Source: Geosiphon pyriformis uo1
Lineage: Eukaryota; Fungi; Glomeromycota
Assembly (NCBI GenBank): GCA_016748015.1
Contig: JAAOMT010000627.1
Span: 1-64,000, forward strand
Length of the DNA: 64,000 nt
Direction: 5' to 3'
Part shown: piece by piece, positions 1,472 through 43,117 of the stretch
Position numbering within the stretch: position 1 is the stretch's first letter
Layout: every line of letters starts with the position of its first letter
Made by a program: the position numbers and the translations under genes
Notes under the pieces: generated by a model
What the model saw: only the letters and a program-made list of their open reading frames with translations
Databases searched by the model: none
What the model was told of the DNA's origin: nothing

Positions 1472-2528
1472 ATGACTATTCCTCAAAACATTCAACAATT
1501 ATCTCAAAAACTAATGTTAGCTTTAAAAACAATACCTGAATTATCTATTACTGTTACTGGAAACCACATTAATTATACCCAAACAGAAGTAGTTACAAAG
1601 TTAGCCCCAAATTCATGAAAATATTACCCATATAAGAAGAACACAAGAAGTTATTCTGGAATTTACCTGCCAGAACTTTTAAAGCTTGCTTTAAGAGAAA
1701 ACTTAATACTCACTCCTATTAGTATTCCACCAAATGCTACTATTCAACAAAAACTTCAACTGTGTCTTAATGAAGAAAACTACAACTATACTCCAATATA
1801 TAGANNNNNNNNNNNNNNNNNNNNNNNNNNNNNNNNNNNNNNNNNNNNNNNNNNNNNNNNNNNNNNNNNNNNNNNNNNNNNNNTCAAAAACTAATGTTAG
1901 CTTTAAAAACAATACCCGAATTATCTATTACTGTTACTGGAAACCACATTAATTATACCCAAACAGAAGTAGTTACAAAGTTAGCCCCAAATTCATGAAA
2001 ATATTACCCATATAAGAAGAACACAAGAAGTTATTCTGGAATTTACCTGCCAGAACTTTTAAAGCTTGCTTTAAGAGAAAACTTAATACTCACTCCTATT
2101 AGTATTCCACCAAATGCTACTATTCAACAAAAACTTCAACTGTGTCTTAATGAAGAAAACTACAACTATACTCCAATATATAGATATTTTTACATTGGAA
2201 AAACACTTCACGAACAAAAATGGAAGCTTACAGCAGCAAATCTTATAAAAGAAGCTATTCAGAAACAACTCCACAATAAATTCAAGACAACAGCTGAATC
2301 AACAAACAGTCGCTACAAGTTCAGAGCTGTTCTTAGACTTTATAACCTATTTCACACCTGTAAAAACGTCCTACAAAACCCAATTTTACAACCCTTGAAG
2401 ATTCAATATATTGGAAAGCTCACAAAACTGGAATTTCAAAAATTTTCAGACCAAATTTTTTTAATAATCTTGGATTACTATTTGGAAATTACAGACAGTA
2501 CTTAGACTTTGACAGAGCTCAGTCTTGA
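1472..2528 (+). pseudogene. Accessory ORF3 of family A (~225 aa after removing the gap duplication), function unknown
   Basis: Manual translation: MTIPQNIQQLSQKLMLALKTIPELSITVTGKPH... RYFYIGKTLHEQ... RYKFRAVLRLYNLF... IQYIGKLTKLEFQKF..., ending at the PPT (..FDRAQS*). Homologous segments occur in B, C and A'. Confidence 0.75.
1504..2184. other. Scaffold gap (79 N, 1805-1883) with unmerged 301-bp contig overlap
   Basis: 1504-1804 matches 1884-2184 except T1537 vs C1917. Confidence 0.9.
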
Positions 2529-2539
2529 GGAGAAGATTA

Positions 2540-3516
2540 TATTACCAGACGAAATTAGAGATATTATTTAGCATGAAATTATCTTTATAATCCCTATCAT
2601 TAATTAGCATATATTATTGTTTCAAATTATCACTTATTACATTAGCAAAAATGTCCAAAATTATCATTTAATTAATAACTCAATTTGTACATAACACAGA
2701 TGTAACCTAATTGTGATGATTAATCATGCAATACCCCAAAATACATAACATTCAAAAGTTTGCTGAAATTTGTAGAAATTCATCGAAATAATTAATAGTT
2801 CACCGAAATATCTATTAGTTTGCAGAAATAACTTGTAGTTTACCAAAATGTATCTTTAGTTCAGCAAAATTGTAGAAAAGAGCAAAGTTCAAGTTCATAG
2901 AATAGTGTTATGACAAGTTGTATAAAAGAAAAGCTTTTCTTTTCGAGGAAATGTATCTTACTTCAGATTTAACAATTAAAATCATCCTTTACACACAAAA
3001 ACAAAATAAAATATCAAATAATTTGAAAAATCAAATTCTTAATTATTTCCCTTTGAAATTAACCAATTTCTACTAAACAGTTTGAAATTGATTAACTACC
3101 AATTTCAGTAAACTGTTAGTGACTCCAGACCTGAATAGAAAACGTTTCCCTTGACAGAATTCTATTTCTTTTACATTTTTTTTACTTCTTTTTTATTTTT
3201 TTATAATCATTAGGGTAGCCTATAGATGGGATTCCTGTAGAAGAGTTGACTTTCACAGCAAAGTAACTACACATTTTTAGTGAACTTTCAGATGAGCAAT
3301 TCCTGGGAAAGAGTTGACATTTACTACAATGTAACTACATAAAGTAACTGGCATGGAATTGGCCATTCCACTTATAAGCCCAGCAGTTCAAATTATAGGA
3401 GATAATTTGAAAATAAATTCAGTTACTGGAGGTTCAACTACTTCCTGGAAACATGAATTCACAGCAAGTCAACATCAACAACATTTAAGAAAAGAGACCA
3501 AAAACCTCCAGTAACA
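2540..3516 (+). repeat. LTR family A (3' LTR)
   Basis: Runs T(A)TTACCAG...CCAGTAACA, with a PPT immediately upstream, TATA-like TGTATAAAAG at ~2920 and a ~20-bp motif array at 2757-2873. Confidence 0.92.
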
Positions 3517-9441: not shown

Positions 9442-9558
9442 TTTGGTGTTCTTTTATGGAAATAACACAGCAACAATTAAATCAAAGTAGTAATTACATT
9501 AGACATAACAATTCTAAAATATTATTGTTACAGATTAGAGTAATAATTTAATAAATAG

Positions 9559-10476
9559 TGTTACAAGTGATTATTTGGGGTCTCAAAGCAAATAACAAAC
9601 CTGTAACTTGGTGCTCAATTGATAATGTTAGTAATATCTGAAAGTGTTTTGATTTGAAGGTTTTTTATTGGAGTTTTTTATATAATAGACAGAGATTCTC
9701 ATGTTATTTTATCCATCGCTTTTCAGAATCGCAATTTTGTCAATTTTTTTCTTAACATAGTGGCTGGCAATCCTCTGATAAGCAATCCGTAATTCTTATG
9801 TATTCTATCCACTTACAGGGGTCTTTTACTAGGCAATCTTTGACATTAATACTTAGTGCTTAATTTTTAATCAATTAGTATACACAACAAAATAAAGCAA
9901 AAATAAAGAGATAAGGAAAAATAAAGACAATAAGCCAAGGCAATATAAGTTAGTATTTTGTCAATAGCCATGATCAAAGACTATTGTTCCTGCAGGTTTT
10001 AAGTATCAATTACTATCAACATTTAGAGTTAATAGCAAAAAATTGGATTTAAGATGCTGAATAAGTATATTTATTGATATTTTGGAATAATATGGTTTTT
10101 AACTGAGGAATAGTAACTAATAAATTTCTGTTTGAGTATTCTGTCTTTTTTGTTTCTAATGCTACTGCTATATATATTTATTTTCTAGTTTTACAGAATT
10201 GCTTTGGATTGTCTGTTTTTGCTAGCTATTACTTTGTTTTTTAATATTATAATTAATTATTCTATATTATAACATGTTATCTAACATTATTACATGTTAT
10301 TCTGTATTATCTTATATTATAATACATTATCCCATGTTATAACACGTTATCCTATGTTATAACACATTATCTAACATTATTGTACACTATTCTGTGTCTT
10401 TTCATGTTTTGTTATGTTTTTCTTCAGATCATGTTTTTCTTTTTTTCTTTGATAGGCTTTTTTTCTTCAAATAATA
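9559..10476 (-). repeat. LTR family B (3' LTR)
   Basis: Direct repeat of 18854-19751, adjacent to the PPT AAAAAAAGAGGAGATAA on the minus strand. Confidence 0.95.
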
Positions 10477-10491
10477 TTATCTCCTCTTTTT

Positions 10492-11261
10492 TTAATATTG
10501 AGCTCCTATGAAGTCGGTTATGTTTGTTGATAAAACTTTGTTTATGTAATATTTAATAGTTATGTCAACTATGGCTTTTTGTAGATCTTCAAACTGTTGA
10601 TTGGTCATTTGTCCTATGTTGTTGACTGTTATTTTTTTTAAAGATCCATCCAATAGTACATTTGGACAATGTTAGAAAGTAACATATAATTGACATGCTG
10701 TCTTGTAGTATAGTGTCAGGTTGCTTCTTTTTATGAATTCTTCTACTTGTCATATTGCTTTTTTGTTGAAAGTTTTCTGGTTGTAGTCTCCATATGGGTT
10801 TTCTAAGTCTAGTTGTTCCCTAATTTTGTAAAACCAATATGTTGAAGGGAGTCTTTTTTTTCACTTCTGAACATTGTCTGGTGTTCATTCTCCTGTTTCA
10901 GGAGTTTGGTTTCATGAGCTAAAGATTTTTTAATTATTTCTAGCTTAAGGGCCAAATATGTTGTATATAATTGTTTTTGTCTTCTATCTAATTTTTTCAC
11001 TCTTTCTTCTTCCTTTCCTCTTTTTTTTCCATGTTTCATCCAAGAAGTATATTTAATTCTTTTTTGTAAAATTTTCTTTCTGGACGGAATATAAGAATGG
11101 GAACAGTTAGTTCTAGTTGAACTCTTGCCTATTTTTCTCTTCCCTTTATCTTTATATCTTATCTCTTTTTTATTGATTATAATTTTTATTTGAAATGTAG
11201 ATTTTTGAATTTTATTAAATAATTGTTTAGATAATTTTAAAATTTTGTTTAAAAGATCCAT
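10492..11261 (-). pseudogene. Accessory ORF3 of family B
   Basis: MDLLNKILKLSKQLFNKIQKS... YWFYKIREQL... YYKTACQLYVTF... ITVNNIGQMTNQQFEDL... DFIGAQY*. Contains frameshifts; aligns by eye to ORF3 of A. Confidence 0.75.
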
Positions 11262-11341
11262 GTTTGAAATTTCTATCATTCTTTTTTTTGTGGTCTTGAG
11301 GCTTATATGCATGTAATATCTAGATTTCGGCACATGTGTAG

Positions 11342-12500
11342 CTATGTCTTGATAATTATGATTGGTTCCATATTTCGTGGTATATCTTTTGGTCTGATTA
11401 ATAGAATTTGTGCTCCTAATTGTGGTTCCACTGATGTTGATTTTTTGTGTTTGATAAATTTTTAAACAATTTTTATGTGCTGTTCTTTTCAGAATTCTGT
11501 TTTCTAATCATAACTTGTAAGATTCGTTTCCTAAAATTTTGTGTATGTAAAATGGTCTGTCCCATTTTGGATCAAACTTTCCATTCCACTGTTTTTTCAC
11601 TTTGGTATAATGTAATAGTACTTTGTCTCCAATCTTAAATTCGACTGGTTTATTTGGTAATTGGTTATTGTGTCGTTTTTTTTGCTTTTCTTGAGACTTT
11701 TGAATGTTATCAGCTGCTTTTTGTCATCTGTTTTCTAGTGTTTCCATTAGGTCATATGTTCTTCTCAGCAATGTTTCTTGGAAATTGTCTTCTGTTATTG
11801 GTTTCATTGGATATGTATTGATCTTTATCTTAACTGGTAATGTTGCCGTTCTATTGTATACTAATTTAAATAGTGTTGCTTGTATAGTATCTTGCTTCAT
11901 CATTTGATAAGCAAATAATACTGATAATATAAATAAATCCCATTTGTTCTGGTTTTTTTAACTGATCTTGGCTATCAGTTTGCACAATGTTCTATTGAAT
12001 TTTTTGACTAATCCATTGGTTTGTGAATAATATGGTGATGATAATAGTCTCTTTATTCTGAATCTTTGACTCAGTTCTGTTAATGTTCTATTTACAAAGT
12101 GAATTCCTTGGTCGGATAATAATTTTTTTGGACATCTATGTCAACAAATCAAATCTTAATAGATGAATTTGGCAACAGATTCTGCATCTGCTCTTTGAAT
12201 TGCTTTTGCTTCTGGCCATTTAGTGAGATAATCCATGGCTACTGTGATGTATTTGTTCCTTCTGCTAGTTATTGTTAATGGTTCAACTAAGTCAATTCCA
12301 ATACACTCAAATGATTGTCCTATTTTGATTGGTTTTAATGGCTCACTGGATCTTGTTCCTTTTTTTCTTTGACAAACATCACAATTTTGCATGTATTGGA
12401 TGATGTCTAGGTACATGGATGGCCAATAGTATTTATTTCTGGTTCTTTCTATGGTTGCTTCTTTGTGAAAATATCCTGCTGTTGAATCGGAGTACATATT
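11342..12500 (-). pseudogene. Integrase of element B
   Basis: ORF 12156-12497 (KYYWPSMY, CDVCQR, IGIDLVEP, MDYLTKWPEA). The LSDQG and KFDPKWDRPF regions lie downstream. Confidence 0.93.
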
Positions 12501-12749
12501 GAATAATATTGTTTCTTTTTCTGGTTTTGTAATTACTCTGGTTGGTTGATTTGAATTCTTTTTGTTTTTTCAATAAAGTATATTTTGGTGAGTGATAAAA
12601 TATTTGGACTGTTGTTTAATATGGTTTTGTTCCTTTTGAGATAATCTCTCCTCAAACCATTGAGTATTTATTAAATATTGAAGTTGTTGATATTTTTGTG
12701 TATTCATCTTTTTGTTATATTTTTGGGTTGAAGTGTTCTTAGATTTGTT

Positions 12750-14094
12750 TCATTTGTGATAAACTGTTGGCATTTCCATTTTCTTTTCCTTTTTTGTAGT
12801 GTATGATATATTTAAATGGTGAAAGTTCTATTTTTTATTGAGCATGACAATCATTTCCAAATTCTTGCTTCTGAATTGAAGTCAATCCTTTATGATCAGT
12901 GTAAATATTAAACTTCTGGCTTAAGTATTCTTTTCATTTCATGACTGCCCAATAGATTGCTAAGTGTTTTAATACTGGTGTTCTATAGTTCTTTTCAACT
13001 GGATTCAAACTTCAGCTAGCATATACTACTGAATGTTTTCTTTCATTTGGTTCTCTCTGTGATAGTACTGTTCTCAATGCTTGGCCTGATGTATTGGTGG
13101 TAATAATGAATGGTTTGCTGTAATTTGAATACATCAACACTAGAGCTTGAATAATCTTTTTTCTTAATATGTCGAAAGCTTCTTGCTGGTTTTCTGTTTA
13201 TTCATACTTGATGTTTTTTAATTGGAGCTGGTGTAATGGCTGGGCCAGTTTAAAAAAGTCTTTGATAAAGTGGCAATAGTATTTAGCAAATTCCAAGAAT
13301 GCTTTTAGTTCTGTCAAGTTGGTTGGTACTGGAAAGTTCTTGACTATCTCAATCTTGTCTGGATCTGTTTTGATATTGTTTTTGCTTACAACATGTCCCA
13401 AAAACTTGAGTTCAGTTTTTCCAAAGAAATACTTGGTTGCATTTAATTTTAATCTGGCTTTTCTTAATCTTTCAAACATTTGTTAGAAATGATGCAAATA
13501 ATTGTCAAATGTCTTGGAGAACACATTTATGTTATCTAAGTAAACAACTACTGATTTTCATAGTAGTCTAATGTAAACAATTTCCATTAGTCATTGAAAG
13601 GTGGCTGGTACATTCATCAAACCAAATGGCATTACTTCAAATTCGAAATTCCCTTTTCACATTGTAAAAGCAGTTTTCTTTTTATCTTCTGGTTTCATGA
13701 CTACTTGCCAGTAACCACTGTCTAAGTCCAGAGTTGAAAACCATTTCTTTCCTCTAAAAGCATCAAACAGTTCTTGGATCTTTGGAGTTAAGTAGCTATC
13801 TCTTTTTGTTACTCCATTCAGTTTTTTATAATCCACACAAAAATGGATTTTCCCATTTTTTTTATAGACTAGTACCACTGGTGATAACCATGGGCTTATT
13901 GATGGCTGAACTAGCCTGTTGTTAAGCATCCAATTAATTTCTTGACGAATGATTTCATGGCTGGCTGGTGGTACTCTGTATGCTTGTTGTTTTATTGGCA
14001 TCACATTTCCAGTCTTGATCTGATGCTGAATAATGTCAGTATGGCCAAATTCATTTTCACTGACAAAAATGTCATTAAAGTTGTTAAATAACAT
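12750..14094 (-). pseudogene. Reverse transcriptase and RNase H of element B
   Basis: PWLSPVVLV, HFCVDYKKLN, FSTLDLDSGYWQV, KKKTAF, VMPFGL, VVYLDN (D>N), LKFLGHVVS. Confidence 0.95.
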
Positions 14095-14574
14095 CTTGAG
14101 CTGTATATGTTAAAATGAGTCTAAGTTTTCTATATTCATTTGTTCCAATTGTTCTGATTGGAGCAGATAACATTTATTCCATCTGTAAATTGTTTGTGAC
14201 ATGATATCCACATATCCACAAAGCTGTAGAAAATCTGGAATGAAGTTTGGTGGCTGTTCTTCAACTTCAGTGCTTAAATATCCAATGGTGGTTTTTTTTA
14301 ATATTTCTATGATGTTTTTTGTTGTGTTGTAGATGGGAATTTTGATATGGTTCTTGTTTTTAGCTAGTATGTAAAGGTTGGTAAGTCTAATTTCTCCTGA
14401 TTTGCAAATAGTTGGTTCCATTTCAAAAATTTGTGTCTGATTCTTCACTTTTCTTTCTATGATTAACATGTACTGGTCATATGGTGGAATGGAAATTAAT
14501 TGATAGATGGATATAATTTCTTTCTTGTTAATAATCTCTTCTTCTGCCATATTGACTGATACATCTATTCTACC

Positions 14575-14955
14575 TATTGATTCGAATTCCTGTATCCCTC
14601 TAGCTGTAATTCCTAATTTTTTTCTATTTCCCACTGATACTAATTGAGCTATTTTAACTAAAGGCAGAAATATTGTCTGTGCTATCTTTTTATTTGGCTC
14701 TATAATATAGGCATTTTCTGAGTCATTTTGTAGCATAACAATAATATTTTCTACATATATGGCATCAATTATTTCTCCTCTGATGCTGATTTCTTTTTTT
14801 GCTAAGCTATTTTTAGATGCTAATTGAACTATTGTTGTTGTAGAGATTTCCAGTACTACTTTAAAATCAATACAGGTGCATAAATGTGGTTTTAATTTGA
14901 TGGCATTTTTTCCCATATATCTTAGATCAAACTCTGCATCAGTATCATGTGCACA
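14575..14955 (-). pseudogene. dUTPase domain within Gypsy pol (between protease and RT)
   Basis: All five trimeric-dUTPase motifs are recognisable despite G>A decay: DAEFDL (AGxDL), ASKNSLA (RSS), GEIIDAIYVENI (GxIDxxYxG), KIAQ, RGIQEFESIG (RGxxGFGSxG). Confidence 0.9.
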
Positions 14956-15199
14956 TTCTGACATAATATCTTCATCATTGTTACTGAACCATCTGAGTTT
15001 CTGCTTCTTGGAGAGATCAGGAAGTGTGATGTACTGTTTGGAGTCTGAATCTGAGTTTAAATCATTGTTGTTATTGCTGTTGCCATTTTGAACAATGCTG
15101 GAACTATTGTTGTTATTATTGTTGGGGTTTGAATCAGAATTAAAAGTTGAATCTAATTCTGATACACAGCTGCTGATTGGTTCTTTTTCTTCTAGAATT

Positions 15200-15880
15200 G
15201 TATAGATCTTATGTGGTGTTAGATTGTAGATAAGGTTATACTCATTACAATACTAAAAGTCACATGAGATCAAACAGTGGTCACATAATTGGGTGTTTAT
15301 TTCTTTCAAGTGCTGTTCTTGTTCCTTTCAAATGGGTGCTAAATTTTGGTATTGTTCATGGAATTCCTTTGGGTCTGTCTCAATATTTAAAAAGGTGTTA
15401 AGATTGGAAATAAGAACAACTTCAACTGGTTCTGGTGAATTGTTTTTTATATCTAAGATCTCACTGGGCAAAGCACCTGCTATCTTAACATTGACTATTC
15501 TCCAAATCTTGCCTTTGTTATGTGGATAATTGTCCAGGCGAGAGATTGCTCGATGCCAGGTTGCAGTTATTGGGATTTCTTGACTTACCCAATTGTTAAT
15601 AAGAATTGTGTATTGACATGATGCATCACAGGTTCCTTCTCGACCAAAAATGTTGTTCCATATTTCTTTATTAAGCAGTTATTCACTACAAGCAAGACAT
15701 GGCTCATTGTCTCACTTGCCTTAGGGTTTTGAATAGCCATAGTGTTTATGGTGGCATAGTTTGCAATAGTAATGGATTTATGTCTAGTAGTCTTTATCAG
15801 GCACAACTCAAGCTTTTATGGAGGACAACTTTTTCTTGCAGTTTTTGCACTTGAGTGAGATATAGGGTGGCTCTGATCTG
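15200..15880 (-). pseudogene. Unknown Cys-rich, putative Zn-binding domain in pol
   Basis: Manual translation in the pol frame: KCKNCKK, YYCKLCHH, PCLACSE, GTCDASCQY, LCDHCLISCDF*YCNE. Confidence 0.7.
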
Positions 15881-16089
15881 GTGTTAGTTGAATAAGAACT
15901 TCTCCAACCACTGGTAATTTCATTAGTAGTATCTTTTTGTGGCTTGTCTTCTTCTTTTTTTTTCTTTTTGTTGTCCCAAAACAGTATTGGTAGTAATTCA
16001 TTGTGGTCAGTGTAGCTCATGAAACTTGGTAGGCTTTCCAGATAGGTTTTTTTTCTTCTTCTTCAAATTCAATTAGTGGTGCAGTTGTA

Positions 16090-16480
16090 ATGGTCTTGAA
16101 GTGTTTACAAGTGACTGGTATTCTAATATGTTACCCATTTTGGCTGAGCTGTAGTTCTTGGATGTTCTAGTCAAGCACAGCATTAATTTTAGACAACCAG
16201 TTATTACCAATGAAAGCTTAATACTGGGTGGCTTCCATGACTAAAATCTTGATTGGTACAATGATACTATTGACTTCGATAAGAAAATTGTTGATTTCGC
16301 TAATTAGAGTTTTGGTGGCTTTATTAGCAGTAATAATTTTGGCACTGGCAGCATAATCAACTTGGCAACCTAATTGGTTCATGAGTTGTTGTGTGATAAT
16401 GCTGTCTGCTAAACCACTGTCTAAGATCAGCTTGATGGTCTGCCTATCAACCTTGGCATTAGTGTACATAACAATAATGA
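16090..16480 (-). pseudogene. Retropepsin-like aspartic protease of element B
   Basis: MYTNAKVDRQTIKLILDSGLADSII (catalytic DSG), followed by a degenerate ALxGNxWL-type motif. Confidence 0.9.
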
Positions 16481-17059
16481 GTTTCGTATTAAGGGTGGCT
16501 CCACTAAAGAGAGAGGTTTCAGTTGGTCTTTTAATTTCAAAGGAAAAAATGACTGCTAACAATTCGTTATTTGTGATAGTGGCTAGAAGTATGTTGTTAT
16601 TAATTGTTTGCTTTAGGGAGGTTTCCAGGTTGTTGTTGGTTAAGACATCTTCTGGGATAACCAGGAAACTCAGATAGTTTTGGGAACTCTGATTTTGATT
16701 GTACCTGTTTTCTGAATTCCTGGAATGTGATTCTACAGTATGGTTGGATAAACTGAAGATTGGTTAATGTACAACTATCACTGATTTCCAGTTTTGCTAA
16801 ACAATTCTCAGTCTTTGGTTTCTGGATGACATCTGAATTGGATTGTATGGTGGGGTTTGAATTTGTTGTGGCTAATATATTACTTGTGACTGTGGCTGGT
16901 AAATAACTGGTGCTGGAGTTTAATAAACTGGGATTTGGTAGATTGGTTGCTGTGCTATTTGAGTATAATGTGGTTGATAGTGATCTTAATTTGAGTAGTG
17001 GTTCAGAGTTTGAAATCTGCGATTGGAGTTTTGATTTTGATTCTCCAATCATAGATTAT

Positions 17060-18791: not shown

Positions 18792-18834
18792 TTTTGAATG
18801 ATTGTTGTTGGTACTGGTTTTTTGTAGAATTATA

Positions 18835-18851
18835 CCTCACAAAGAGCACCA
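18835..18851 (-). promoter_or_regulatory. Primer-binding site TGGTGCTCTTTGTGAGG
   Basis: Lies 2 nt inside the 5' LTR end. Complementary to a tRNA 3' end ...CCUCACAAAGAGCACCA, which resembles elongator tRNA-Met or tRNA-Ile(UAU) ends. Confidence 0.85.
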
Positions 18852-18853
18852 AA

Positions 18854-19751: not shown

Positions 19752-19985
19752 ATAACAAGAAAAAACAAGATTGTAGAATAATAAAATAGATTAAAGAAAA
19801 TTTAACTTTAAAAAATAAATTAAATAAATATGGATTTAATATACAAGATCAGTCTTATAAAATATTTTAATTGTTAATTTTTTTTTTTTTATTAGTTTAA
19901 CAAGTAAAGCCCAATTATTATCTAATACAATACAATTATCTAAAAGTTTTAAATTAAATGTGATTTATGCTTTTGCTATATGTAA

Positions 19986-27540: not shown

Positions 27541-28164
27541 CGAAAGAGTTATTATTTAAAAAAATGTTGAAAGAACTAACAAGAAAAAATAGAAAAACTT
27601 CTTTTTCAGAAAATGTGCTTTTTGAGAATTTTTGGAGGTAAGAAAGAAAGAAGTTTTTTAATTTTTTTCAAAAGATAATTTATACTGTCAACAAATAATA
27701 ACATATTAATATAATTTTATGCTTTATATTGACATTTTTAAAATTCAATATTAGATATTAGATGTACTCTTTAATCACATTTTATTTAATAATCTTCAAA
27801 TACTATAATTATATAAATTAAGAAAAAGTAAGTAAATATTAACAAATAATTTTTTATCCTAAGATGTTTAAATACTTGAAGATAAGAAAAAAAAAAGAGA
27901 AACAAATAATAAGAAAAGAATTAAATTGATAGATATTGTTTTATTCTTTTGATTTTTTACATATTTTTTTATAGTTAAAAAACTTATTGTTTATATAACT
28001 ATTTAAAGTAGTCAATAATCAGGTCAATAATCAAATTAATAGTTAGGTTATTAATCAGATTGATAATTGCTATCTAAAATAATATAGTTAATTATATAAT
28101 ATTAGTAATTAGTATATGTAATAATTAATAAAAACTATAAGTTTCAATTATAATATTATTCTTT

Positions 28165-28810
28165 TTAAAAAGATTAAGCTTTGGTAAAATCAAGCTATTT
28201 ATAATGTAGTTTATCTAAAAAATCTTATTTAACTTAAAACTAACTAGTTTGTTGAAATTTTTTGTAAATAAAGTATATAATACTTGAAATAAAATAAGTT
28301 TTGTATTTAAAAGACTAAATTTTTGTATAAAAGTTTTGGCTTTTTTTGGAATAGTTAAAACTCTTGGAATATCTAATTATATAATTTCCAAAATTTTTAT
28401 TTGTATTTCTAAAGTTGTTTTCTTTAAGAGTTTTATGTTTTTTATAACTTCACCAAATTAATTATAGAGCTTTAATTGTTTTTTATATAATAAGTTTTTG
28501 TTTATGGACAGAATTTCTTGAATTGTTTTTCCAATTATAATAAAAAATATGAATATTATTGCTGTTATGCTTTTTAGCAGATTCTTATCTATTTTGCTAC
28601 CAATTTTTTCTTTTCTGTTAATAATTTTCTTTGGTTTAATAACAATATATATTCTATTATTATTAATTATAGTTATCTGTTTTTTAATAATTAAAGTAGT
28701 ATTTAAATAATTTTTGATTCAATACTTATAAAGAATATAAAAGGCATTTTAAATGTTTTAATCTAAGAAATAATTGTTTATGTCAATTGAAGATATTTCT
28801 GTTTTAGAAA
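28165..28810 (-). pseudogene. Accessory ORF3 of family C (degenerate)
   Basis: Fragments NIFN*HKQLFLRLKT and IIGKTIQEIL align to the ORF3 motifs of A and B, at the same position between integrase and PPT. Confidence 0.55.
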
Positions 28811-31800
28811 TAATATATTTATTTATATTTAATTTTTGTTAATTATTTGGATCAGTATTACTATAACAAATAACTAATCAAGTCATTTGTAATATTTTTT
28901 AAATTATGTTCTATAAACAGAACAATTATTAAAAATTGTTTTATATTAATCTTATAAGATATAAAAACTATTGTTTAAAACTTTGTTGATTATAAAAAAT
29001 TCTTTCTATTAGTTAAAAAATTTATTATTATAGACATTGTTTTTGTTTAAGTAATATTCTAAAACTAAATTATTAATACTTAAAAAAAGTGTTTTATAAG
29101 TTTTCTTTTTTTTAAGTTTTTCTTGAAACTGTTTTATCATTTTAAAAACAATTATCTATGCTTTTACCAATGAGTCAAAAATAGTACCAATTTTTTTTGC
29201 AAAATGTTTTTATAATTTCTTATTGTAATTTCTTTAAAGAGTTTTGTTTTAATGTTTGTTTTTATTGGCAAAATTACTATTTATTCATAAAACAAATAAA
29301 AAAATTTATAATTTATTATGCTATAATTTACAGTTTTATAAGCAAACAAAACTAAAAACAGTACTTTGTTTTATAAGTTTGTTTTTTATTGGTTTTGGCT
29401 AAAATTTCACATAAGATTTTATTAAAACATTCTACTAAGTCATTTGTTTAAGAATAATAAAAAGAAAAAAGGTTGTAATATATTCCTATTTTTCTATAAA
29501 GTTTTTCAACCAGTGTACTTAAAAAAGCTTTTTTTCTATAAGATAAAAGTTCTTTAGAGCAGTTATAGCAACAAATAATATTTTTATAAATAAAATTGGC
29601 TATTGAGACAACTATTTGGTCTGAGATAACTCTTGTTTTTACTTATTTTGTAAAATAGTTGATAGTTGTAATAATATATCTGTTGCCATTAGAAGTTATT
29701 GTTAAAAATTCAACAATATTTATACCAATTTTGTCAAATAATTGACCAACAAAAATTGAATGAATATCTTTTTTTCAATTGAATTTTTTTTTTTGGCAGA
29801 TATTACAGATTTTAATGTAATTAGCAATGTTTTTTCCTAAGATAGACTAATAATAATAAGCTAGAGTTTTCTAAATTGTTTTAATCTTTTTAAAGTTTTT
29901 AATTAATAGATTAGTGTATATGTTGTAGATTACAATTTTTTTTCAAATTTGATGATTTTTTAAAAGCAATCAGAATCTTTTTTATTTCTTTTGTATAATT
30001 GGTTTTGATAGATTAAATAAAAATTTGATTGTTTTTACAAATGTTTTTTTTGTTGTTAAATGTAGTTTAATAAGTATTGTTTTTTATCTAAAAATTCTAT
30101 TAATACAGAGTAATTATTCAAGTCTATTATTATGTTTGTTTTAAGAGAAAGTTACTAATAATTAAGTTGGTTTGGTTTGAAAAAGTTGTATTATTATTAA
30201 ATGGTAAGTTTAAAAACAGTATTAGGATTTTGATAATAAGCTCTTTGTAATATTATATATTATAATCGAATTTATTCAAGTAAAATATTTAGTAAGTTAT
30301 TTTTTTATGTTTCAGCTTCTTTTTATTATACAGCTAAATCAAAGCTTAGTAATCTGTTATTACCAAAAACTTTACACTAAGAAGATATTTACTTCAGTAA
30401 GTAGTAAACTATACTACTGTTAAGCATTTTTGTTCTATAACTAAGTAATTTTGTTTTGTTAAGAAAAAAAAGTTGTTAGCACAAGTTATAATATGTTCTT
30501 TATTATCTTTATTTTTTTAAAATAAAACAGCACCAAGTCCAAAGCCAGATGCATTAGTATAAAAGATAAAAAGTTGATTCAGATTAGATTGTTTGAGAAT
30601 TAGTTTAATAACTAGTTTTTCTTTTAGAATTTTAAAAACTTTTTGTTAGTGTGTGTTTTAATAGTAATTAACAGTTTTTTTGGATAGTTAATTGAAAGAA
30701 AATATGATTTTGAAAAAATCTTTAACAAAATTTTGATAATAAAAGACCAAACTAAGAAAAAAATATAGTTTATGAATGTTTATTAGTTGTTTAATGTTTT
30801 GAACTTTTTTAATCTTGGCTGGATTAAAGAAAATTTCATTTTTTGTAATAAAATAACCAAGAAACTAAGTAGATTGTTGTCCAAAAAAAGATTTGATTAA
30901 ATTAATCTTAAGACTAGCATTTCTAAGAAGATCAAAAACCTTTTGCAAATATTTAAGATGTTTATTCCAGATTTTGGAGTATACTATTATGTTATTTAAG
31001 TAAACTAAAACAAAGTTTTTTTTTACTGATTTAAATATTTTGTTTATTAAGCATTAAAAAGTAGAAAAAGCATTAGTAAAGCCAAAAAACATGACTATAA
31101 ATTTATAAATATCATACTTAATAATAAAAACAGTTTTTTTTCTGTTTTCTAAATCTATCTCTATTTGCCAAAATCTAGCAGTTAGATTAATAGTTGAAAA
31201 AAAAGCAGCATTATTAAATTAATCTAATATTGCATCAATTTTAAAAAGTAAATACATATCTTTTTTAGTAATAGTATTTAATTGACAATAGTCAATACAG
31301 AAGTATAAAGTTCTATTTTTTTTAGATACCACTATAACTGAGAAGATCTATTTATTCTTGGTTTTTTGTATAAATTCAAGATTTTTTATTTAGTTTATTT
31401 TTTTCTTAATAAACTTATTATTATAGCAATTAGATTAATAAAGCTTTAGATAAATAAAACAAGTTTTTTTAATGGTAATAATATGTTGTATTACATGAAT
31501 ACATCTAAAAATATCATCTTTTTTTGATATAACTAAGCTGTTTTTAGTCAGTAAGTTTTTAATGTTCACTTTTCTTTCTTTAGAAAAGAGTTTTTTTTGT
31601 TTTACAGCTAGTAATTAAATCTTAGATGGTTTATTTTCAAAAAACTTTTGCACTTTTTTTATTTTTTTTCTTGGTATTAAGCTGATTGGTTTTCAATTTT
31701 TGTAATAGATTAAGCAAAACATGTATTTGTTATTAAGAAAATACAAAAGTTTATTGTACTAGCACCAGACACAAAAACCATATTACCAATAATTATATTT

Positions 31801-34462: not shown

Positions 34463-35196
34463 TGTTATAAGTTGAAGTAATAAGCTAATGAATAGTAAGA
34501 GAAAACAAGATTGTAGGATAATAGAATAAATTAAAAAAAAATTAACTTTAAAGAACAAATTAAATAAATATAAATTTAATATATAAGATCAGTCTTATAA
34601 AATATTTCAATTATTAATCTTTTCAAAAAGTAACTAAAAAATCTAAAAATAGAAAAATAGTTTATATTGTTAATAAATAATAACACATTAATATATTTTA
34701 TGTTTTATGTTGACATTCTTAAAATTTAATATCAAATATTAGATGTACTCTTTAGTTATATTTTATTCAATAATTTTCAAATACTATAATTATACAGATT
34801 AAAAAATGATAGATAAATGTCAACAAATAATTTTTTATTTCAAGATATTCAGATACTTGAAGAAAAGAAGAGTGAAAAAGAAATAGGCAATAAGAAAAGG
34901 ATTGAGTTGATAAATATTGTTTTATTTTTTTATTTTTTTACATATTTTCTATAGCTAAGAGATTTATTGCTTATATAGTTATTTAAAGTAATTAATAATT
35001 AAGTCAATAATTAAGTTAATAGTTAGATAATTAATTAAATTATTAATCAGATCAATAATTATATTAATAATTAGATTAATAATCAGATTATTAATTAGGT
35101 TAATAATTATTATCTAAAAATAAAGTGACTAATTATATAATATTAATGACTAATACATATGATAATTAATAAAAACTATGGATTTTAACCATAATA
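34463..35196 (-). repeat. LTR family C (5' LTR)
   Basis: TGTTAT...CATAATA ends, 12-bp array at 34990-35107, degenerate PBS at ~34441-34456. Confidence 0.85.
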
Positions 35197-38100
35197 TTAT
35201 CAATTAATTTACACTTATTATAAACAACAATTTAAAATTTGGAATAAAATTATAGCCTTTAAGAAAACATTTTTTTAATATATTAAAAACCAAATCAATG
35301 ATTATCTTTTTAAAAATTACAATATTACAAAAATCAAGTAAAGACTTTTTGAAAACTTTATCTACTACTTAAATGAAAACCCAAAAAATATTAGTGCTAA
35401 TAATTATACTATTTACTTAAAGAACTTAATTACAACATTATCAAATTTTGTCAAAAAAAATATTCTGCTAACTTACAATTTATTTTTAAACTTTAGTCTG
35501 AACTCAAAACAAGCAAAAAAAGCAAAAAAAATACTTAATTAATTTATATAATATTCAATACACCAAAAACAACTTTTCAATATTTGTAAATACTTAAACA
35601 AAGAGTTAATTCTAAACTACCACTTTTAATTATACTCTTTTCAACTTTTTTTGCATAAGCCCAAACATTGAATTTACTACTTAATTGTTTTTTAAAACCA
35701 AAGACTTTATATTATTAAAAAGCTTAATACAATAATTTGAACAAATTTTTATCAGCACAAATCTTTTTAATTACTTAGCAAAAAACTAAAGTAATTACTC
35801 TGATAACATAAGTGATAAAAAAACAATTCCTTAATTTACTAAAAAAAAACCAATAAAAACAAAAACATAATAATTAGATATATTGCAAAATTTCAGAGTT
35901 TACAAAAAAAAATGCTAACACTAGTTCTTAAAAATGGTTTTACAAAGTTTCAAAAGCAAAATATGTTAATAAATAAAATACAACAAAAATATTAAAAGCA
36001 ATTTTCTACTTTTTCTAGAAAACAACAGAAAAATAATTTGAAAACTTAAGTAAACTATTTAAAAACTAACAAATATTTAAAAATGCTTTCTTAGAACAGT
36101 TTACTAACAATAATACTCTTATTATTCTCCAAAATTAATTCTGAAATATCAAACAAAAATTCTCTAAATTTATCATGACCTATTTTAGAAAGTTTAACAA
36201 ACTTTTCTAACAAATTTACCAATTGAAAACCAATGACTATTACTTTAATGCTTAAATATTAGACCAATTTATTATTAAACTTAAGAATAAATTAATCAAA
36301 AAATTTTGTTCACATGCCTTAAAAGATTTAGCCAATGCTATTTAACATGCTAAGGCCTACAAAATAGTTATAAAAGAAGTCAACTACATAAAGCTTGTTA
36401 ATTTAGCTATTAAAAAAACCAGTTCAGCAGTTGAAAAAAATATTGATCAATTCACAAAAAAAGTTGAAAACTATTTTACAAATTAACAACAGTAATAATA
36501 ACAGAGATATTAATTATTACAACAATAAAACCAAAGCAACTTTTTATTATTATTAAACAACCAATCTCAAAGCTATTACTATTATGAGATTTTAAAACAT
36601 TAAAAATAAGATTGCCAAAAAATACAATAAAACCAGCAGCAAAAAAATAATCAACATTATTTTTAATCTTAGCAATTATATTATCAATTATTAGTATCAG
36701 CTTATTACTTATTAAAATTTTAAAACAATTATTACTAATCTGCTCTATAATCAATAAAAGAACAATATTAGCAATTTCTATAGATTTAATAATATTAATC
36801 CTCATCTGTCTAATAATATTAAATACTTGCTCAAAGATTAGTTTAATAAAACCAATTCATATTACAAAACTAATTTATAAACAACAACAAAATTAATTCC
36901 AACAATTAATTAGTTCTTTATAATATAGTTTTTTATAATATAGTTCTTTATAATATAGTTCAACAAAAATCCAATTATTTTTACACCCAACTTAACTATT
37001 TAATAATACCCAAAGAATCGAATTTTTATCAAATTGCACTTTTTAAAAGTGAAGCTGCAACACTAAAACAAAACTTTTTTAACAACAATTACACAATTTT
37101 ACCAGCTAAAATTGCCAAAAATGCCAATTTTTTCGATATTTTTTTATTTGAATTTAAAGCTATTACAAAACAAAAAGCAATTACTATTATGTATACTAAA
37201 GCAAAAGTTAAAAAAAAACCAATTCAATTAATTTTAGACTGTAAATTAACTAAAAATATTATTACTTATTAACTAATACAATAATTCAAATAAAGTATAA
37301 ACTAATCAATTTAAACTATTATTGTTATAGCTAATAATATGAAAAAAAACACCTGTAAAAAAAATCAACAATTTTTTTTTATAATTAATAAAATTACTAT
37401 TTTAATTAAAGTCTTAGTTATAGATACATCTCAATACCAAGCTTTAGTCAAAAACAATTGGCTCCTTAAAGCCAATGCAAATTTAGATTAGAAAACTTAA
37501 AAACTCAAAATTTTATATCAAGAACAATATATCTGAGTATTTGCTATATGTAATATTTTCAACAAATAATCCAAAAAAGCCCCAATATTCGAATTTGAGA
37601 AAAAAAAATTCAATTACCAAAACTTACATGATTTTTGAATTAACATTCAATTGGATTGAGAAAATAAAACAACTATTTGAAATATTTACAATACAAATAA
37701 TAATATTATGACTTAAAAAAACTAATTAACAATCTACTTTCATAATTAAATTAGTTAACAATTAGTATATTCTATATTTAAAACCAGAACCAAAAAAACA
37801 ACCATCCTATATTTTATTTAAATACAAAAATTAAAACAAAAAGCTTTTATTTATAGAAGTTTGCATATTATCCAAAAAAAATATAAAACTTATATTTGTT
37901 ATTACTGTAAAGTCTACTACAGAAAACAATTTGGCAGTCCAAAACAAAGTAAAAAATAGAATAACACAGTTTGTTTCACATATAGAAAATTACTATCTGA
38001 AAAATATATCTGAATTAATATTGTAATAAAAAGAAGAATATGTAATTAAATTTGCTAATATGTTTTATTAATTTCTAAAAAAGTCAAACAAGAAATATTT

Positions 38101-41100
38101 TTTGATGCAGCATACAATAATGTTCTTAATAAACTGTATTATTACTCATATAATACAGAAATAATTTATAAATTAGCCATAACTCTGATCAATAAAAAAA
38201 CCCAAGAAGATATTTACCAGATTAAAAAAGCAAAATACATTAAATATACTATAAAATTAGCTGGATTTGATTATAAAAATAAAATAAAAACTTACTATCA
38301 GATTACAAATTATGTATATTTAATCAAAAAAAACTCAAATTTAATAATTAAAACAAATAAACATTTAACTATGTAAAAAATATATTATGCTTTGTAATGA
38401 CCAATAGTATTCAAAATGCTATGCATTTAGTATTTTCTTGTTCAACAAAAGTAACAAATATAAAATTAAATTTGAAAAATCCAAACCAGAAAAAAAAATG
38501 TCAACAATTCTAATCTATCTTACTAAAAATCAGTCTGCCATATGACTTAGATATTTTAACAACAATAAACAAAAAATTAAACCAAAAAAAGCCCATAAAA
38601 TTAATACTAAATATAACTTACAATATTTTGATAAAAATACTTTGGTTTTTTAACTTAAATCCTTGACAAAAATCAATATTAAAATTTTATTAAAAGCAAT
38701 AATTCAAATTGCTTTTTAATTATTTTTAACCAGCAAAAAAATCAATATTAGAAAAGAAGTTATAGATGTAAAATATACTGAAAATATTACAATTATGTTA
38801 CAAAATGAAACTAAAAAACCATTTAAAATCAAACATGCTAAAAAAATTGTTCAAGCTATTTATCTATTTTTAATCAATATTTTGGATTTGTAATCAATTA
38901 ATTACAGAGAACAATTAGACAAAAATAAAAAAAACCTAAGATTTTGGTTCAACTAGATGATTTATAGTTTTAGTTAACATAGTTCTTAATGCACAAAATT
39001 AATCTTACCAGATTCTTTAATTTTACAATTAATTATTATCTTATCTTTTAGAAAACATCAAAAAATTTACATCTGTCCAAAACTTACTACCATACAACAA
39101 ATTTTCGAATTTAATAAACAGATTTGCAAAAAACATAACATTTTAATACTAAATGTTTATATTTCTAAGAAAATAAAAAAATTTTAAGTAATTTTAACAA
39201 CTATCTTATTATTTTATTAAATAAATTAGAAATTGAAATCATAAATAATAATATCTTTCAAAAAAAAATCTCTTAAATTGTTTCAAATTTTATTAAAATT
39301 GTAAAATATATACTATTCTTAAATCTAAATATTATTTTTATTATTAAAAATTATTATATTATTGAGAAAACACTTTCTCAAATTAATATAAGTTCCTTAG
39401 AACTTTTATAACAAAAACAACTAAAGCAATTTATTGTAAAATATGCTAATATATTCATTAAAAATAATAATAATCTTGGAAAAACTAACATTGTATAACA
39501 TCAAATCTATATAGAAGATATTCTACTAAAATGCCAATAGGTTTATTAAGTTTTACCAGCCAGCCACCAATTTATTAAAAAAAAATCTAACAAATACTTA
39601 ATAATAATTTTATCTAATCATCCAAAAGCCTCTGAATCTTATCAGTAGTTCTTATAAAAAAAAATAAAAAAATTTGATTTTGTGTTAACTATTATTAACT
39701 AAATAATATTACAATTAAAGATATATACTTCTTACTTATAGATATTGTATATAAAAGACTTTTATAACAATCAGTAATTGTTTATTTTGATAATACTAAT
39801 ATCTATTCTCTAATATTTAAAGCCTATCTTATTTATCTGTAAAAAGTTTTTTAACAATTACAAAAAACAGGACTAAAGCTTAATATTAAAAAATACCACT
39901 TTAAAAAAACAAGTTTAATTTTTCTTGAACATATTGTTAACAAAGATAAAATCTAATTCAATTCGGAAATTATTAGTATTGTAAAAAAAACTTTTAAATT
40001 TCTTATAATACTACTAAATTAAGAGGATTTATAAGATTAACCTCTTATTATTATAAATTTATCAAAAAATTTTCTAAAATTGCCAAATTTTTTAACTATC
40101 TAGTCAATAAAAATGTAGAATACTAATAAACTTCAGTTCAATAAAAAGTTTTTGACACTCTAAAAAAAAAATTACTACTTTAGTTCTTGCTTACTCAGAC
40201 TTTAACAAATAATTCCAAATAATTACTAATATTATATAAACAGTATTTAATACTATCTTATTATAATTAAATAATAATAACAATAAGCAAGTTATTATTT
40301 ATATTAGTAGAACATTCAAATTCACTGAAATAAAATATGGCTCAACTAAATTAAAAGCAATTGCTGTTATCTGGACTTTTAAATACTTTTAATAATGCCT
40401 ATAAAAAAGAAAAAAATTTGATATTATTATTGACAACATTAGTCTTAAATAGTTTAACAAAAAAAGTTTTAAAAAACTTAGTGTCAAACAATTTTAATAG
40501 ACTGATTTTCTAGTCAATTACAAATATATTGTTTACTATAAACTTGAAAGATTACATACCAATATTAATAGTCTTTTAAAAATAAGACAAAATTAATATT
40601 AATACCAATTCTATTATTATTTACTAGTTTAATAATAATAAACAATCAATAAACAATAGATTCTGAAAACTACAACAACATTAAAACCTATTTAGAGATT
40701 CTTACTATGCCAGAAAATTGGTTTTCAATCAAAAAACATTAACTATAATACTAATTAAAACAATATTTTCTTTACTATAACAAAATTTATTATTAAAATT
40801 GTAGAAATTTAATTAATTTATTCAGATTAATTCAAGAAAATAAAAAAAAATTATTCTTTACAATATGTATACTAATCTATTATCAGTATACTTAGAAAGA
40901 AATAAAACAATTTAAAAAACACTTGAACATTATTTTTGGTATTATATATAAAAAAACATTTAACAATACATGGAATCTTGTGATAATTGTTAAAAAAAAA
41001 AAACTTATTTCACTAAACTTTTAAATTTAATTAAAGTTGGACAATTCTTTAATAGAATAAAAATTGATTTAGTTAGACTATTATTAATTACTATTTAAGA

Positions 41101-43117
41101 AAATTATTATATTGTAATTATAGTAAATTATCTTATTAAATAATCTAAAACCAAAATTATCCAAAGAGCAAATACAAAATTAGTAGCAAATTTTATCTAC
41201 AAAGACATTATTTATAGACATAGATGTTTAATTAAACTTTTATTCAATTAAAAAACATATTTTACAAACAATTTGATACAAAAAATTTGTGAACAATTCA
41301 ATATTAAAAAACAATTATTATCATTTTATTACTTATAAACAAATAAATTAGTAAAATAATTTAATTAAACAACTAGTTAAAGTTTCAACCAATTTTAAAC
41401 AGAATAGATTTTTATTTTATTAGTATTACTAGCTTATAGAACACTAAAACAAAATACAATAAAGCACATATTATTTAATCTAATCTACAGAAAAACAGCA
41501 ATATTACCAATTAATTTTACAGTAGAAACATATTTAGTATAATTAATTATAAAATAACTTTTAAGAAACACTTTAATAAAGAGCCTATATTCTTTTTAGT
41601 ATTTTTAAAAAAAAAAAAATTGCAGCCATTTATATTGAACACTCTTAAGCTTAACAAAAAGAACAGCATAATAACAAATTACTACCAGCCATTAACAAAT
41701 TCAAAGTTAAAAATAAAGTTTTCTTATACAAAATTAAGACTAAAAAACAATAAAGTAGAAAATTTGATTATAAATAGGATGAATCATTTTATATTCATAA
41801 AACTTTAGGCAATAAATTATATAAATTAAGATTTAATAACAAAATTTTAACAAAAGTTATACATAAAAATTAATTAAAACACTATTATTTCAGAAGCAAT
41901 TCTAAATTGTTAATTTTACAAATTAGTATACATTCCTTTTTAATTAATTCCAAAAATATTCTTTGAAATTTATAACCAATAGTTATAATAGAACAACCAA
42001 ATCTGAATATTCAAATTATTTATATTAGTAATTTCTTTAAAAATAACTACAACAAAAAATAACCAACTTAAAAATATATAAAAACTTTTATATTCAAAAA
42101 TTATTATTTTTAATTTTTATTTTATTTTATAATACTTATTCACCAAAACATTTAACAAATATTTCAAAAATTAATGTTAGCTTTAAAAATACTTTCTAAC
42201 TTATTCATAATAATTAATAAAAATCAAATCAATTATATTTAGAAAAAAACTACAGTTCCAGTAATAAATAATTTGCAGAATTATTACTTTTATAGAAAAA
42301 AGCACAAAAAATTATTTTGGAAATTACTTAACAGAATTTTTAAAGCAAGCTTTAAAAAAAATCTATTGTTTACTTCTATTAACATTTATCAAATTTTACA
42401 ATACAACAAAAATTTTAAATGTGTTTTAACAAAAACAATAAATATATCCCAATTTATCAAGATTTTTAAATTAAAAAAACACTATACTAACAAAAACTAA
42501 AACTTAAAACAACTAATTTATTTTCAAAGCTATACAAAAACAAATTTAAAACAAATTCAAAACAACAATTGGACTAATAAATGTTCATTACAAACTCAAA
42601 ACAGTTTTTAGACTTTATAACTTATTTAATATTTGCAAAAATATCTTATAAAATTCAATACTTTAACTAATAAAGATACAATATATTGGCAAGTTCACAG
42701 AACTGAAATTTTAATAATTTTTACACCAAATTATTTCAATAATACTGAATTATTATCTAGAAATTATGGTTAGTATTTGTACTTTAATAAAGCTTAGTTT
42801 TAAGAAAAAAATTATGTTACCAGTAAAATTTTAGCCATTAATTAACATAAAATTACTCTTATAATTTATATTATTAATTAACATATTATTATTATTACAA
42901 TTATTATGTATTATTTAATCAAATTATCAAATATTATTATCTAATTAATAATTCAATTTGTACAATACACATATTGTGATAATTAAATCATACAATATAC
43001 CAAATTCTATAATATTCAAAAATTTGCTGAAATTTGTAAAATTTTGCAAAATAATTTAATAATTTACTAAAATTATTCATAGTTTATAGAAATAACTTGT
43101 AGTTTGTTAAAATGTAT

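What the first reader, a model, noticed from the sequence alone, without database searches (positions are those of the whole stretch)
1472..42800. Three divergent Gypsy families share a non-env accessory ORF3: candidate 'complex retrotransposon' regulator system
Seen: families A (1472-2528; 42130-42800), B (10492-11261, minus) and C (~28165-28810, minus) have unrelated LTRs. Each nevertheless carries a ~220-260 aa ORF between integrase and the PPT with shared motifs: N-terminal IxxLxKQL/QKL, a central (Y/F)xIG(K/E)xL, and Yx(2-3)AxxLYxxF...IGxLTxxxFxxL in A and B. A and B also end F(D/I)GAQx* directly at the PPT. No signal peptide or TM segment is evident, so it is not Env. Established: standard Ty3/Gypsy elements encode only gag-pol (plus env in errantiviruses); complex retroviruses place transactivators here (foamy Tas, HTLV Tax), and Arabidopsis VANDAL elements encode the sequence-specific anti-silencing factor VANC. 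Inference: ORF3 is an element-encoded helical DNA-binding transactivator or anti-silencing protein, possibly acting on the family-specific U3 motif arrays described next. I recall similar motifs in expanded hypothetical-protein families of AM fungi, but this is unverified.
Basis: partly seen in the sequence, partly recalled or inferred. Interest (0 to 1): 0.85.

Follow-up and report, generated by a model that had tools for sequence, protein, structure and literature searches.

The report
Conserved extra gene in fungal retrotransposons
Several families of jumping genes in this fungus carry, after their integrase, a real extra gene for a soluble protein of no known family, which likely enters the nucleus and would help the element switch itself on, though nothing here shows that it binds DNA.

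Summary
The extra ORF is real. The window matches Geosiphon pyriformis, and intact copies exist for family A (239/235 aa) and family C (218 aa). A and B are homologous, and so are a fourth Geosiphon family and two metagenome proteins. One of those (L001) also sits between integrase and LTR. ORF3 shows purifying selection between A subfamilies, has no transmembrane segment, and has no significant Pfam or fold match. 

Three corrections. C's kinship to A/B is only borderline, and the motifs cited for C are artefacts. A does not end in 'FDxAQ*': it reads through the PPT into U3, as do C and L001. What is conserved there is a DNA motif. The AM-fungus-wide family was not confirmed. 

Two new observations. 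A PY-NLS-like motif sits in a disordered basic linker in five of six lineages. Integrase is a separate ORF, giving three cistrons. 

A nuclear self-regulator is the best guess (about 0.4), but DNA binding, U3 specificity and expression are untested. Non-env ORF3s are a known kind; this protein family looks undescribed.

The parts
3..1349 (+). Family A integrase ORF (H2C2, rve, SH3_Tf2-1), decayed; the window starts inside it
1472..2571 (+). Family A ORF3, 239 aa once the 380-nt assembly overlap is discounted; two in-frame stops; runs through the PPT and 32 nt into U3
1805..1883 (.). N gap flanked by a 300-nt identical duplicate (likely scaffolding artefact)
2515..2536 (+). Conserved DNA motif GAGCTCA(G/A)TCTT plus PPT; lies inside ORF3 in A, C and L001, and spans the ORF3 stop in B
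2540..3516 (+). Family A 3' LTR (977 bp)
2779..2849 (+). Family A U3 array, 20-nt unit x3.5
9559..10476 (-). Family B 3' LTR
10257..10371 (-). Family B U3 array, 10/20-nt unit
10492..11261 (-). Family B ORF3, about 256 codons, frameshifted near 10852, ends FIGAQY* just before the PPT
11340..12707 (-). Family B integrase as a separate ORF with its own ATG, 31 nt after the RT-RNaseH stop
12739..18836 (-). Family B gag, protease, dUTPase, RT, RNase H (decayed)
18854..19751 (-). Family B 5' LTR, followed by a TGG-type primer binding site near 18851
28125..28781 (-). Family C ORF3, 218 aa in intact copies, 6 stops here; runs through the PPT and 31 nt into U3; kinship to A/B borderline
27671..28155 (-). 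Family C 3' LTR, truncated; 12-nt U3 array at 28011-28067
29173..31338 (-). Family C RT, RNase H and integrase remnants
34463..35196 (-). Family C 5' LTR; 12-nt array x9.9 at 34991-35109
35947..42008 (+). Subfamily A' gag-PR-dUTPase-RT-RH remnants and a separately starting integrase
42132..42834 (+). Subfamily A' ORF3 (235-aa type ending LPVEF), frameshifted and stop-riddled

Best explanation
ORF3 is a conserved, selected, soluble accessory gene of these Ty3/Gypsy elements, and its product likely enters the nucleus and likely acts on the element's own DNA or chromatin to keep the LTR promoter active. Shown: it has its own start codon 75-316 nt after the integrase stop; it is kept across families only 17-30% identical; it is under purifying selection; it has no membrane anchor. 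Predicted: a small N-terminal helix plus beta-hairpin, a disordered basic linker with an R/H/K-X2-5-PY motif, and a confident helical core (residues about 89-212). Inferred: the linker is a PY-type nuclear import signal; the helical core contacts DNA; the family-specific U3 arrays are candidate sites; the protein is made from a separate or re-initiated message, as the separately encoded integrase must be too. The tail ELSLEEEIML is probably not a functional peptide but a read-out of the PPT.
For: Gene reality: intact copies. Five homologous lineages, with pairwise local-score z of about 10-39 against shuffles. Same position in an independent element, L001. Selection, A vs A': transversions at codon positions 1/2/3 are 15/6/27; 7 of 19 four-fold sites against 6 of 163 second positions, p=5e-5; 4 of 4 LTR controls not significant. 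Not env. Nuclear signal: the R/H/K-X2-5-PY motif (definition from the PMC2408616 abstract) is at the same place in A, A', B (P0154), D (P0152/3), P0149 and P0151; chance is 2-6% per protein; the segment has pLDDT <50. PY is kept in 25 of 43 full A/A' copies, and the other 18 read SY, LY or FY, which C-to-T decay of a proline codon gives. ORF3 diverges faster than integrase (A-L001 32% vs 58%, A-B 28% vs 55-58%), as the unrelated LTRs do. Host pressure: CpG o/e is 0.01-0.22 in the elements against 0.67-0.94 in host genes, and B's LTRs differ by 113 transitions and 9 transversions. DNA methylation of TEs is reported in a related fungus (PMC8647823, passages). Distinct U3 arrays exist in A, B, C and L001. 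Weak hint: DUF1016_N in 4 of 25 A copies, best E 0.028.
Against: No test of binding or regulation was possible. The DUF1016_N likeness is far below its cut-off (12.9 vs 32.8 bits) and within shuffle range (hhalign score 17.9, P 0.06, shuffle maximum 20.0; 14.6 with a balanced alignment). The proteins are not uniformly basic: pI 5.4 and 5.9 for P0151 and P0149, 6.9-7.0 for P0154 and P0152. C lacks the PY motif (0 of 18), and only 14 of 23 A and 5 of 20 A' copies keep the full motif. ORF3 abuts U3, so the two would co-vary by linkage alone. A nuclear signal fits other jobs equally well. The codon-position signal at deep distance is weak (A-L001 p=0.27, L001-B p=0.72, A-B p=0.03), and one LTR control gave pN/pS 0.56, overlapping ORF3's 0.38.
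Confidence: 0.4

Rival explanations
1. ORF3 is a replication cofactor. It would travel with the particle or pre-integration complex and supply nuclear import, nucleic-acid chaperoning or target-site tethering for an integrase that is made as a separate protein.
For: Integrase is a separate ORF in L001, B and A', and probably C. It has no chromodomain hit. The PY-NLS-like motif fits carrying a complex into the nucleus. PMC7264820 raises this role for additional ORFs.
Against: A partner of a conserved integrase might be expected to diverge less (32% vs 58% identity). There are no interaction data.
Confidence: 0.27
2. ORF3 is a counter-defence protein that would bind a host silencing or restriction factor (RNAi, methyltransferase or chromatin reader) rather than a DNA sequence.
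For: Fast divergence with a retained ORF. Variable charge. Heavy CpG loss in the elements. RNAi and methylation act on TEs in Rhizophagus (PMC8647823, passages).
Against: No similarity to a known suppressor in Pfam, PHROGs or NCBIfam. No positive-selection test was possible without DNA of intact copies.
Confidence: 0.22
3. The ORF is a passenger or an artefact of copy amplification, with no function.
For: Many open copies could come from recent bursts. All four window copies are broken.
Against: Purifying selection between subfamilies. Open homologues of similar length at 17-30% identity, including one in the same position in an independent element. Confident AF2 core.
Confidence: 0.04
4. ORF3 is an env-like or cell-to-cell spread protein.
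For: It occupies the env position, in sense orientation.
Against: No transmembrane or signal-like hydrophobic segment; 0-3 cysteines; only 218-256 aa.
Confidence: 0.04

Closest known systems
[quoted passage not shown]
   Same: Conserved extra ORF of unknown function after pol. Nuclear localisation is reported for GENE23. A regulatory role and DNA binding are proposed, next to tandem repeats in Retand.
   Different: Those non-env aORFs are antisense. This one is sense, has no TM segment, usually overlaps the PPT and U3, and shows no Pfam match to them.
Non-env ORF3s of bdelloid rotifer LTR elements (PMC5408684, abstract)
   Same: Sense ORF3 in the env slot of dUTPase-bearing elements, shared among lineages.
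   Different: Those are recognisable enzymes (GDSL esterase, DEDDy exonuclease) or TM proteins. This one has no enzyme signature or family match.
VANC anti-silencing proteins of Arabidopsis VANDAL elements (PMC5735166, abstract)
   Same: Element-encoded, fast-evolving protein beside family-specific tandem repeats.
   Different: VANDALs are DNA transposons (recalled). No homology was found, and binding or demethylation was not shown here.
Retroviral 3' accessory genes: HIV nef, foamy tas/bel2, HTLV tax (recalled, not tested)
   Same: Position. Like nef (recalled), ORF3 of A, C and L001 runs through the PPT into U3.
   Different: No sequence or fold match. These elements have no env. Splicing is not shown.
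DUF1016_N, the N-terminal helical domain of YhcG (PF17761; PMC1189080, passages)
   Same: Colinear weak match over 77 columns around Y-x-x-IG, R-x-x-x-x-Y and GKL.
   Different: Not significant. YhcG's domain is fused to a predicted nuclease and is itself of unproven function.

Membership tests
Ty3/Gypsy LTR retrotransposon | gag-PR-RT-RH-INT order | tested here: met
   B and A' show gag, PR, dUTPase, RT, RH, INT in this order; L001 shows RT, RH, INT
Ty3/Gypsy LTR retrotransposon | Paired LTRs with TG...CA ends, PBS and PPT | tested here: met
   B LTR pair 84% identical; ends, PBS and PPT visible, the first G often decayed
Ty3/Gypsy LTR retrotransposon | Integrase fused to RT-RH in one Pol polyprotein (usual, recalled) | tested here: not met
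   A stop follows RNase H and integrase starts anew in L001 (24 nt, ATG), B (31 nt, ATG, other frame) and A' (about 60 nt, decayed start); C is suggestive only
Env / env-like ORF3 | Signal peptide and transmembrane anchor | tested here: not met
   Hydropathy maxima 0.79-1.29 in 11 of 12 proteins, 1.79 in one C copy; no dedicated signal-peptide predictor was run
One ORF3 family across A, B, D and metagenome relatives | Significant mutual sequence similarity | tested here: met
One ORF3 family including C | Significant similarity of C to A/B/D | tested here: inconclusive
   hhalign not significant. BLASTP C vs P0151 E=0.002, colinear over residues 4-119. With PPT tails removed, 10 of 18 C copies beat at least 199 of 200 shuffles against P0151, and none against the other 5 targets. 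C model pLDDT 38
Retroviral-type transactivator (Tas/Tax) | Spliced or internal-promoter mRNA | not testable with these tools
   No reads could be laid
Retroviral-type transactivator (Tas/Tax) | Binds or activates the cognate U3 | not testable with these tools
   Needs EMSA or a reporter assay
VANC-type anti-silencing factor | Family-specific tandem repeats in the element | tested here: met
   20-nt (A), 10/20-nt (B), 12-nt (C) arrays; 4 TTGCCCTAG-like motifs in L001
VANC-type anti-silencing factor | Sequence-specific binding and loss of methylation | not testable with these tools
   No methylome or binding data
VANC-type anti-silencing factor | Homology to VANC | tested here: inconclusive
   No VANC sequence was compared directly; no Pfam family above cut-off for 10 ORF3 proteins
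DUF1016_N / ParB-like helical DNA-binding domains | Profile or fold match | tested here: inconclusive
   12.9 bits vs cut-off 32.8; hhalign P 0.06; Spo0J Z 4.1, rmsd 5.3 over 93 residues, tied with unrelated rows
PY-NLS | R/H/K-X2-5-PY in a disordered, basic segment | tested here: met
   Present in A, A', B, D, P0149 and P0151; absent in C
PY-NLS | Import by Kap104/transportin | not testable with these tools
   Needs localisation and mutation of PY

The most novel reading that the evidence does not exclude
These elements are a distinct 'complex' lineage of fungal Ty3/Gypsy retrotransposons with three cistrons (gag-pro-dut-RT-RH | integrase | ORF3). ORF3 is a nuclear DNA-binding protein of an undescribed family, possibly a remote relative of the prokaryotic DUF1016_N domain, that recognises its own family's U3 repeat array and overrides host methylation: a VANC- or Tas-like system in a fungal LTR element.
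Probability: 0.2. Interest if true: 0.88.

Novelty: new variant of a known kind. Interest (0 to 1): 0.55.

Why it matters
LTR elements cover about 41% of the G. pyriformis genome (PMC11952901, passage), despite heavy methylation-type decay. A conserved accessory protein is a candidate reason for that success and is directly testable. It also reassigns well over 200 'hypothetical proteins' in the Geosiphon annotation (203 plus 66 hits) to transposons. If ORF3 is a sequence-specific anti-silencer, it would be a fungal LTR counterpart of VANC and a possible epigenome tool. The separately encoded integrase raises its own question of how these elements express three cistrons.

Tried and rejected
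No whole genome was held, so no genome-wide copy analysis and no dN/dS among intact copies was possible.

RNA: no RNA holder was listed; this is no evidence either way.

ESM Atlas gave no answer in 12 attempts, so remote look-alikes are untested there.

Fold searches of the A model: Foldseek PDB and viral libraries gave no match at E<=0.001. VIA best Z was 4.3 of 48,161 chains and 4.0 of 990. The N-terminal domain was barely tested. This shows neither a new fold nor a difference. The C model was too poor to search (pLDDT 38).

Homodimer prediction: no verdict.

Viral contigs: no relative of C or A.

FtsQ hit (NCBIfam E 5e-4, 19.5 vs 366 bits; PDB E 0.1): rejected as chance. phrog_23683 (10 of 18 members, best E 1.4e-4, unknown function): left unexplained.

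NG86 pN/pS was set aside as the main selection test because transition bias lowered one non-coding control to 0.56; a transversion test replaced it.

'F(D/I)GAQ*' as a shared peptide: rejected.

Literature searches (listings only) showed no paper describing this ORF or a separate integrase ORF in Glomeromycota Gypsy elements. Subscription journals are largely absent from that library, and no supplements were read; the curated TE library of PMC11952901 may hold these families.

A look-up of earlier scan findings by sequence found nothing.
Full report
Setting. The window is a nest of decayed LTR and LINE elements with a few host genes. The best protein matches are all Geosiphon pyriformis hypothetical proteins (120 listed of 203 hits; 66 of 66), so the window is most likely from that fungus or a very close relative. 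I therefore used natural intact protein copies from the databases in place of a de-mutated consensus.

Family A. ORF3 starts at 1472, 122 nt after the integrase stop. An N-run and a 300-nt identical duplicate inflate it by 380 nt. Net it is 720 nt, matching the 239-aa proteins (23 of 120 listed) at about 81-87% identity. The window copy has stops at codons 49 and 218. Intact copies continue past the second stop, through the PPT (2527-2536), and end 32 nt inside the LTR, which begins at 2540. The copy at 42132-42834 belongs to a second subfamily, A' (235 aa, about 66% identical to A).

Family B. The element is nearly complete (9559-19751, minus): gag, protease, dUTPase, RT, RNase H, integrase, ORF3. 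An A-only profile hits its ORF3 C-terminal half at iE 1.4e-7. The same profile against 1.84 billion proteins gave 35 hits. Of these, 18 are named Geosiphon proteins, 2 are unnamed metagenome proteins (P0149, P0151), and 15 were not looked up. They include B-type gene models (P0154, P0155) and a further family D (P0152, P0153). Identities between families are 17-30%, except 36-37% between the two metagenome proteins. All five lineages score far above shuffles against each other. No intact full-length B protein was found.

Independent element. L001 holds the 3' half of a nearly intact Gypsy element: RT-RNase H, stop, integrase with its own ATG (one premature stop), a 316-nt spacer, ORF3 = P0151, PPT and LTR. 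The position of ORF3 is therefore conserved in an element whose integrase is only 58% identical to A's.

Family C. Its frame is biased open (6 stops against 19.2+/-2.8), and intact copies are 218 aa. Profile-profile tests against A or the balanced set are not significant. In favour of kinship: C aligns colinearly with P0151 over residues 4-119 (E=0.002 for the single pair); 10 of 18 copies beat at least 199 of 200 shuffles against P0151, but against none of the other five targets; the mixed profile places 16 of 18 copies start-to-start, at best 4.7 bits, about the 99th percentile of shuffles; and the helix order in the low-confidence C model parallels A's (by eye). C's integrase is also the most distant (36-38% against 50-58%). 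My reading: probably a remote homologue (about 0.65), not proven.

The 'GAQ' end. The DNA motif GAGCTCA(A/G)T(C/A)TT followed by the purine tract is recognisable in A, A', B, C and L001. B stops in one frame of it (FxGAQ). A, C and L001 read another frame through it (ELSLEEE, ELNLFEE). The shared feature is likely a cis-element for plus-strand priming, not a peptide.

Selection. Between A and A', transversions fall 15/6/27 on codon positions 1/2/3, and four-fold sites differ far more than second positions (7 of 19 vs 6 of 163, p=5e-5). Integrase behaves the same way (p=5e-7), and four LTR controls do not. pN/pS is 0.38 (0.28-0.52) against 0.41 for integrase, but controls gave 0.91 and 0.56, so this measure is weaker. 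At deeper distances the signal is saturated or weak (p=0.03, 0.27, 0.72). ORF3 diverges much faster than integrase.

Protein. AF2 on an 18-row alignment gives mean pLDDT 70.5: a helix and beta-hairpin (5-37), a disordered linker (39-64) and a confident helical core to about residue 212. There is no TM segment and no family above cut-off in Pfam or NCBIfam; PHROGs gave only weak hits. The linker holds R/H/K-X2-5-PY, the C-terminal motif of PY-type nuclear signals (PMC2408616, abstract), in A, A', B, D, P0149 and P0151, but not in C, which has a basic cluster there. A weak DUF1016_N resemblance was followed up with 74 YhcG proteins. It was colinear but not significant. Charge varies from pI 5.4 to 9.3, which does not favour a simple basic DNA binder.

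Architecture. In L001, B and A' the RT-RNase H frame stops right after the RNase H end and integrase starts again 24-60 nt later, in different frames; C is suggestive. Decay could create a stop in one copy, but the same place in three lineages points to a real feature. These elements thus appear to have three cistrons and need some way (re-initiation, splicing or internal promoters; inferred) to express two downstream genes. Each family has its own U3 repeat array. Because ORF3 abuts U3, linkage alone would make the two co-vary. An unchecked earlier scan note (e1-7220919) makes the same point for another fungus, and two others (e1-7415706, e1-9512229) report unrelated or untested extra ORFs in fungal Gypsy elements. 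These are leads, not support.

Mechanism. Shown: a real, conserved, selected, soluble accessory gene. Predicted: its fold and a nuclear signal. Inferred: action in the nucleus on the element's own promoter or chromatin, under strong host methylation pressure (CpG o/e 0.01-0.22 against 0.67-0.94). I give this 0.4, an integration or import cofactor 0.27, a protein-directed counter-defence factor 0.22, and passenger or env-like roles 0.04 each.

Comparison with what is known. Non-env extra ORFs after pol are an established kind (PMC7264820, parts 1-2 of 3 read; PMC11963269 and PMC5408684, abstracts; 10.1101/2021.04.13.439636, passages), and DNA-binding regulatory roles have been proposed for them before. 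The idea is therefore not new. The protein family, its sense overlap with PPT and U3, and the separate integrase were not found in the searches made (listings only, open-access library; PMC2836005 passages did not mention a separate integrase ORF). I recall similar helical motifs in Rhizophagus hypothetical proteins, but no call confirmed this. The nef, tas and tax comparisons are also recalled.

Verdict. Observation partly confirmed; interpretation partly supported. This is a new variant of a known kind, interest 0.55.

Noticed in passing
L001 772-799; window 12741-12707 (-), about 40597-40660 (+), about 30110-30090 (-): Integrase is encoded as a separate ORF after an RT-RNase H stop in L001, B and A', and probably C. 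This is unusual for Ty3/Gypsy and was not found in the literature searches.
   Followed up: partly
window 14110-15252 (-) and 38480-39178 (+): Families B and A' carry a dUTPase domain between protease and RT.
   Followed up: partly
window 1504-2183: A 300-nt identical duplicate around a 79-nt N gap, likely a scaffolding overlap that inflates ORF3-A.
   Followed up: yes
window 9559-10476 vs 18854-19751: B's two LTRs differ by 113 transitions and 9 transversions. Elements have CpG o/e 0.01-0.22, and older copies drop to 18-19% GC, which suggests strong methylation-linked C-to-T decay.
   Followed up: partly
window 8504-9558 and 19752-19883: Nested insertion: B appears to sit inside a C-type LTR remnant with an apparent 4-bp duplication, next to an A-type LTR and its PBS.
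   Followed up: partly
window 24794-25764 (-), 8504-9438 (+), 48572-49486 (+): Further A-type LTR copies. The one at 24794-25764 is flanked by GTGG on both sides and looks like a solo LTR.
   Followed up: partly
window about 20400-27657 (-) and 60905-64000 (+): LINE-like elements with an RRM-type ORF1, RT and an RNase H domain.
   Followed up: no
window 52695-59441: Host gene island: a SET-domain gene (53013-53447, -), a PHD-finger gene (55180-57265, +) and a VTT-domain membrane gene (58178-59441, -).
   Followed up: no
window 4221-7888 vs 47524-51333: A pair of long, very AT-rich inverted copies (about 68-73% identical) with no hit to the pol queries; family not identified.
   Followed up: no
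window 60703-60888: An imperfect palindrome of about 190 nt (70% self-complementary) just upstream of a LINE-like ORF1.
   Followed up: no
P0152, P0153: A fourth Geosiphon ORF3 family (D), closer to B than to A, not present in this window; the gene models are fused to LINE sequence.
   Followed up: partly
alignment A2 residues about 115-160: phrog_23683 (unknown function) matches 10 of 18 ORF3 proteins, best E 1.4e-4, over the same helices as the weak DUF1016_N hit.
   Followed up: no
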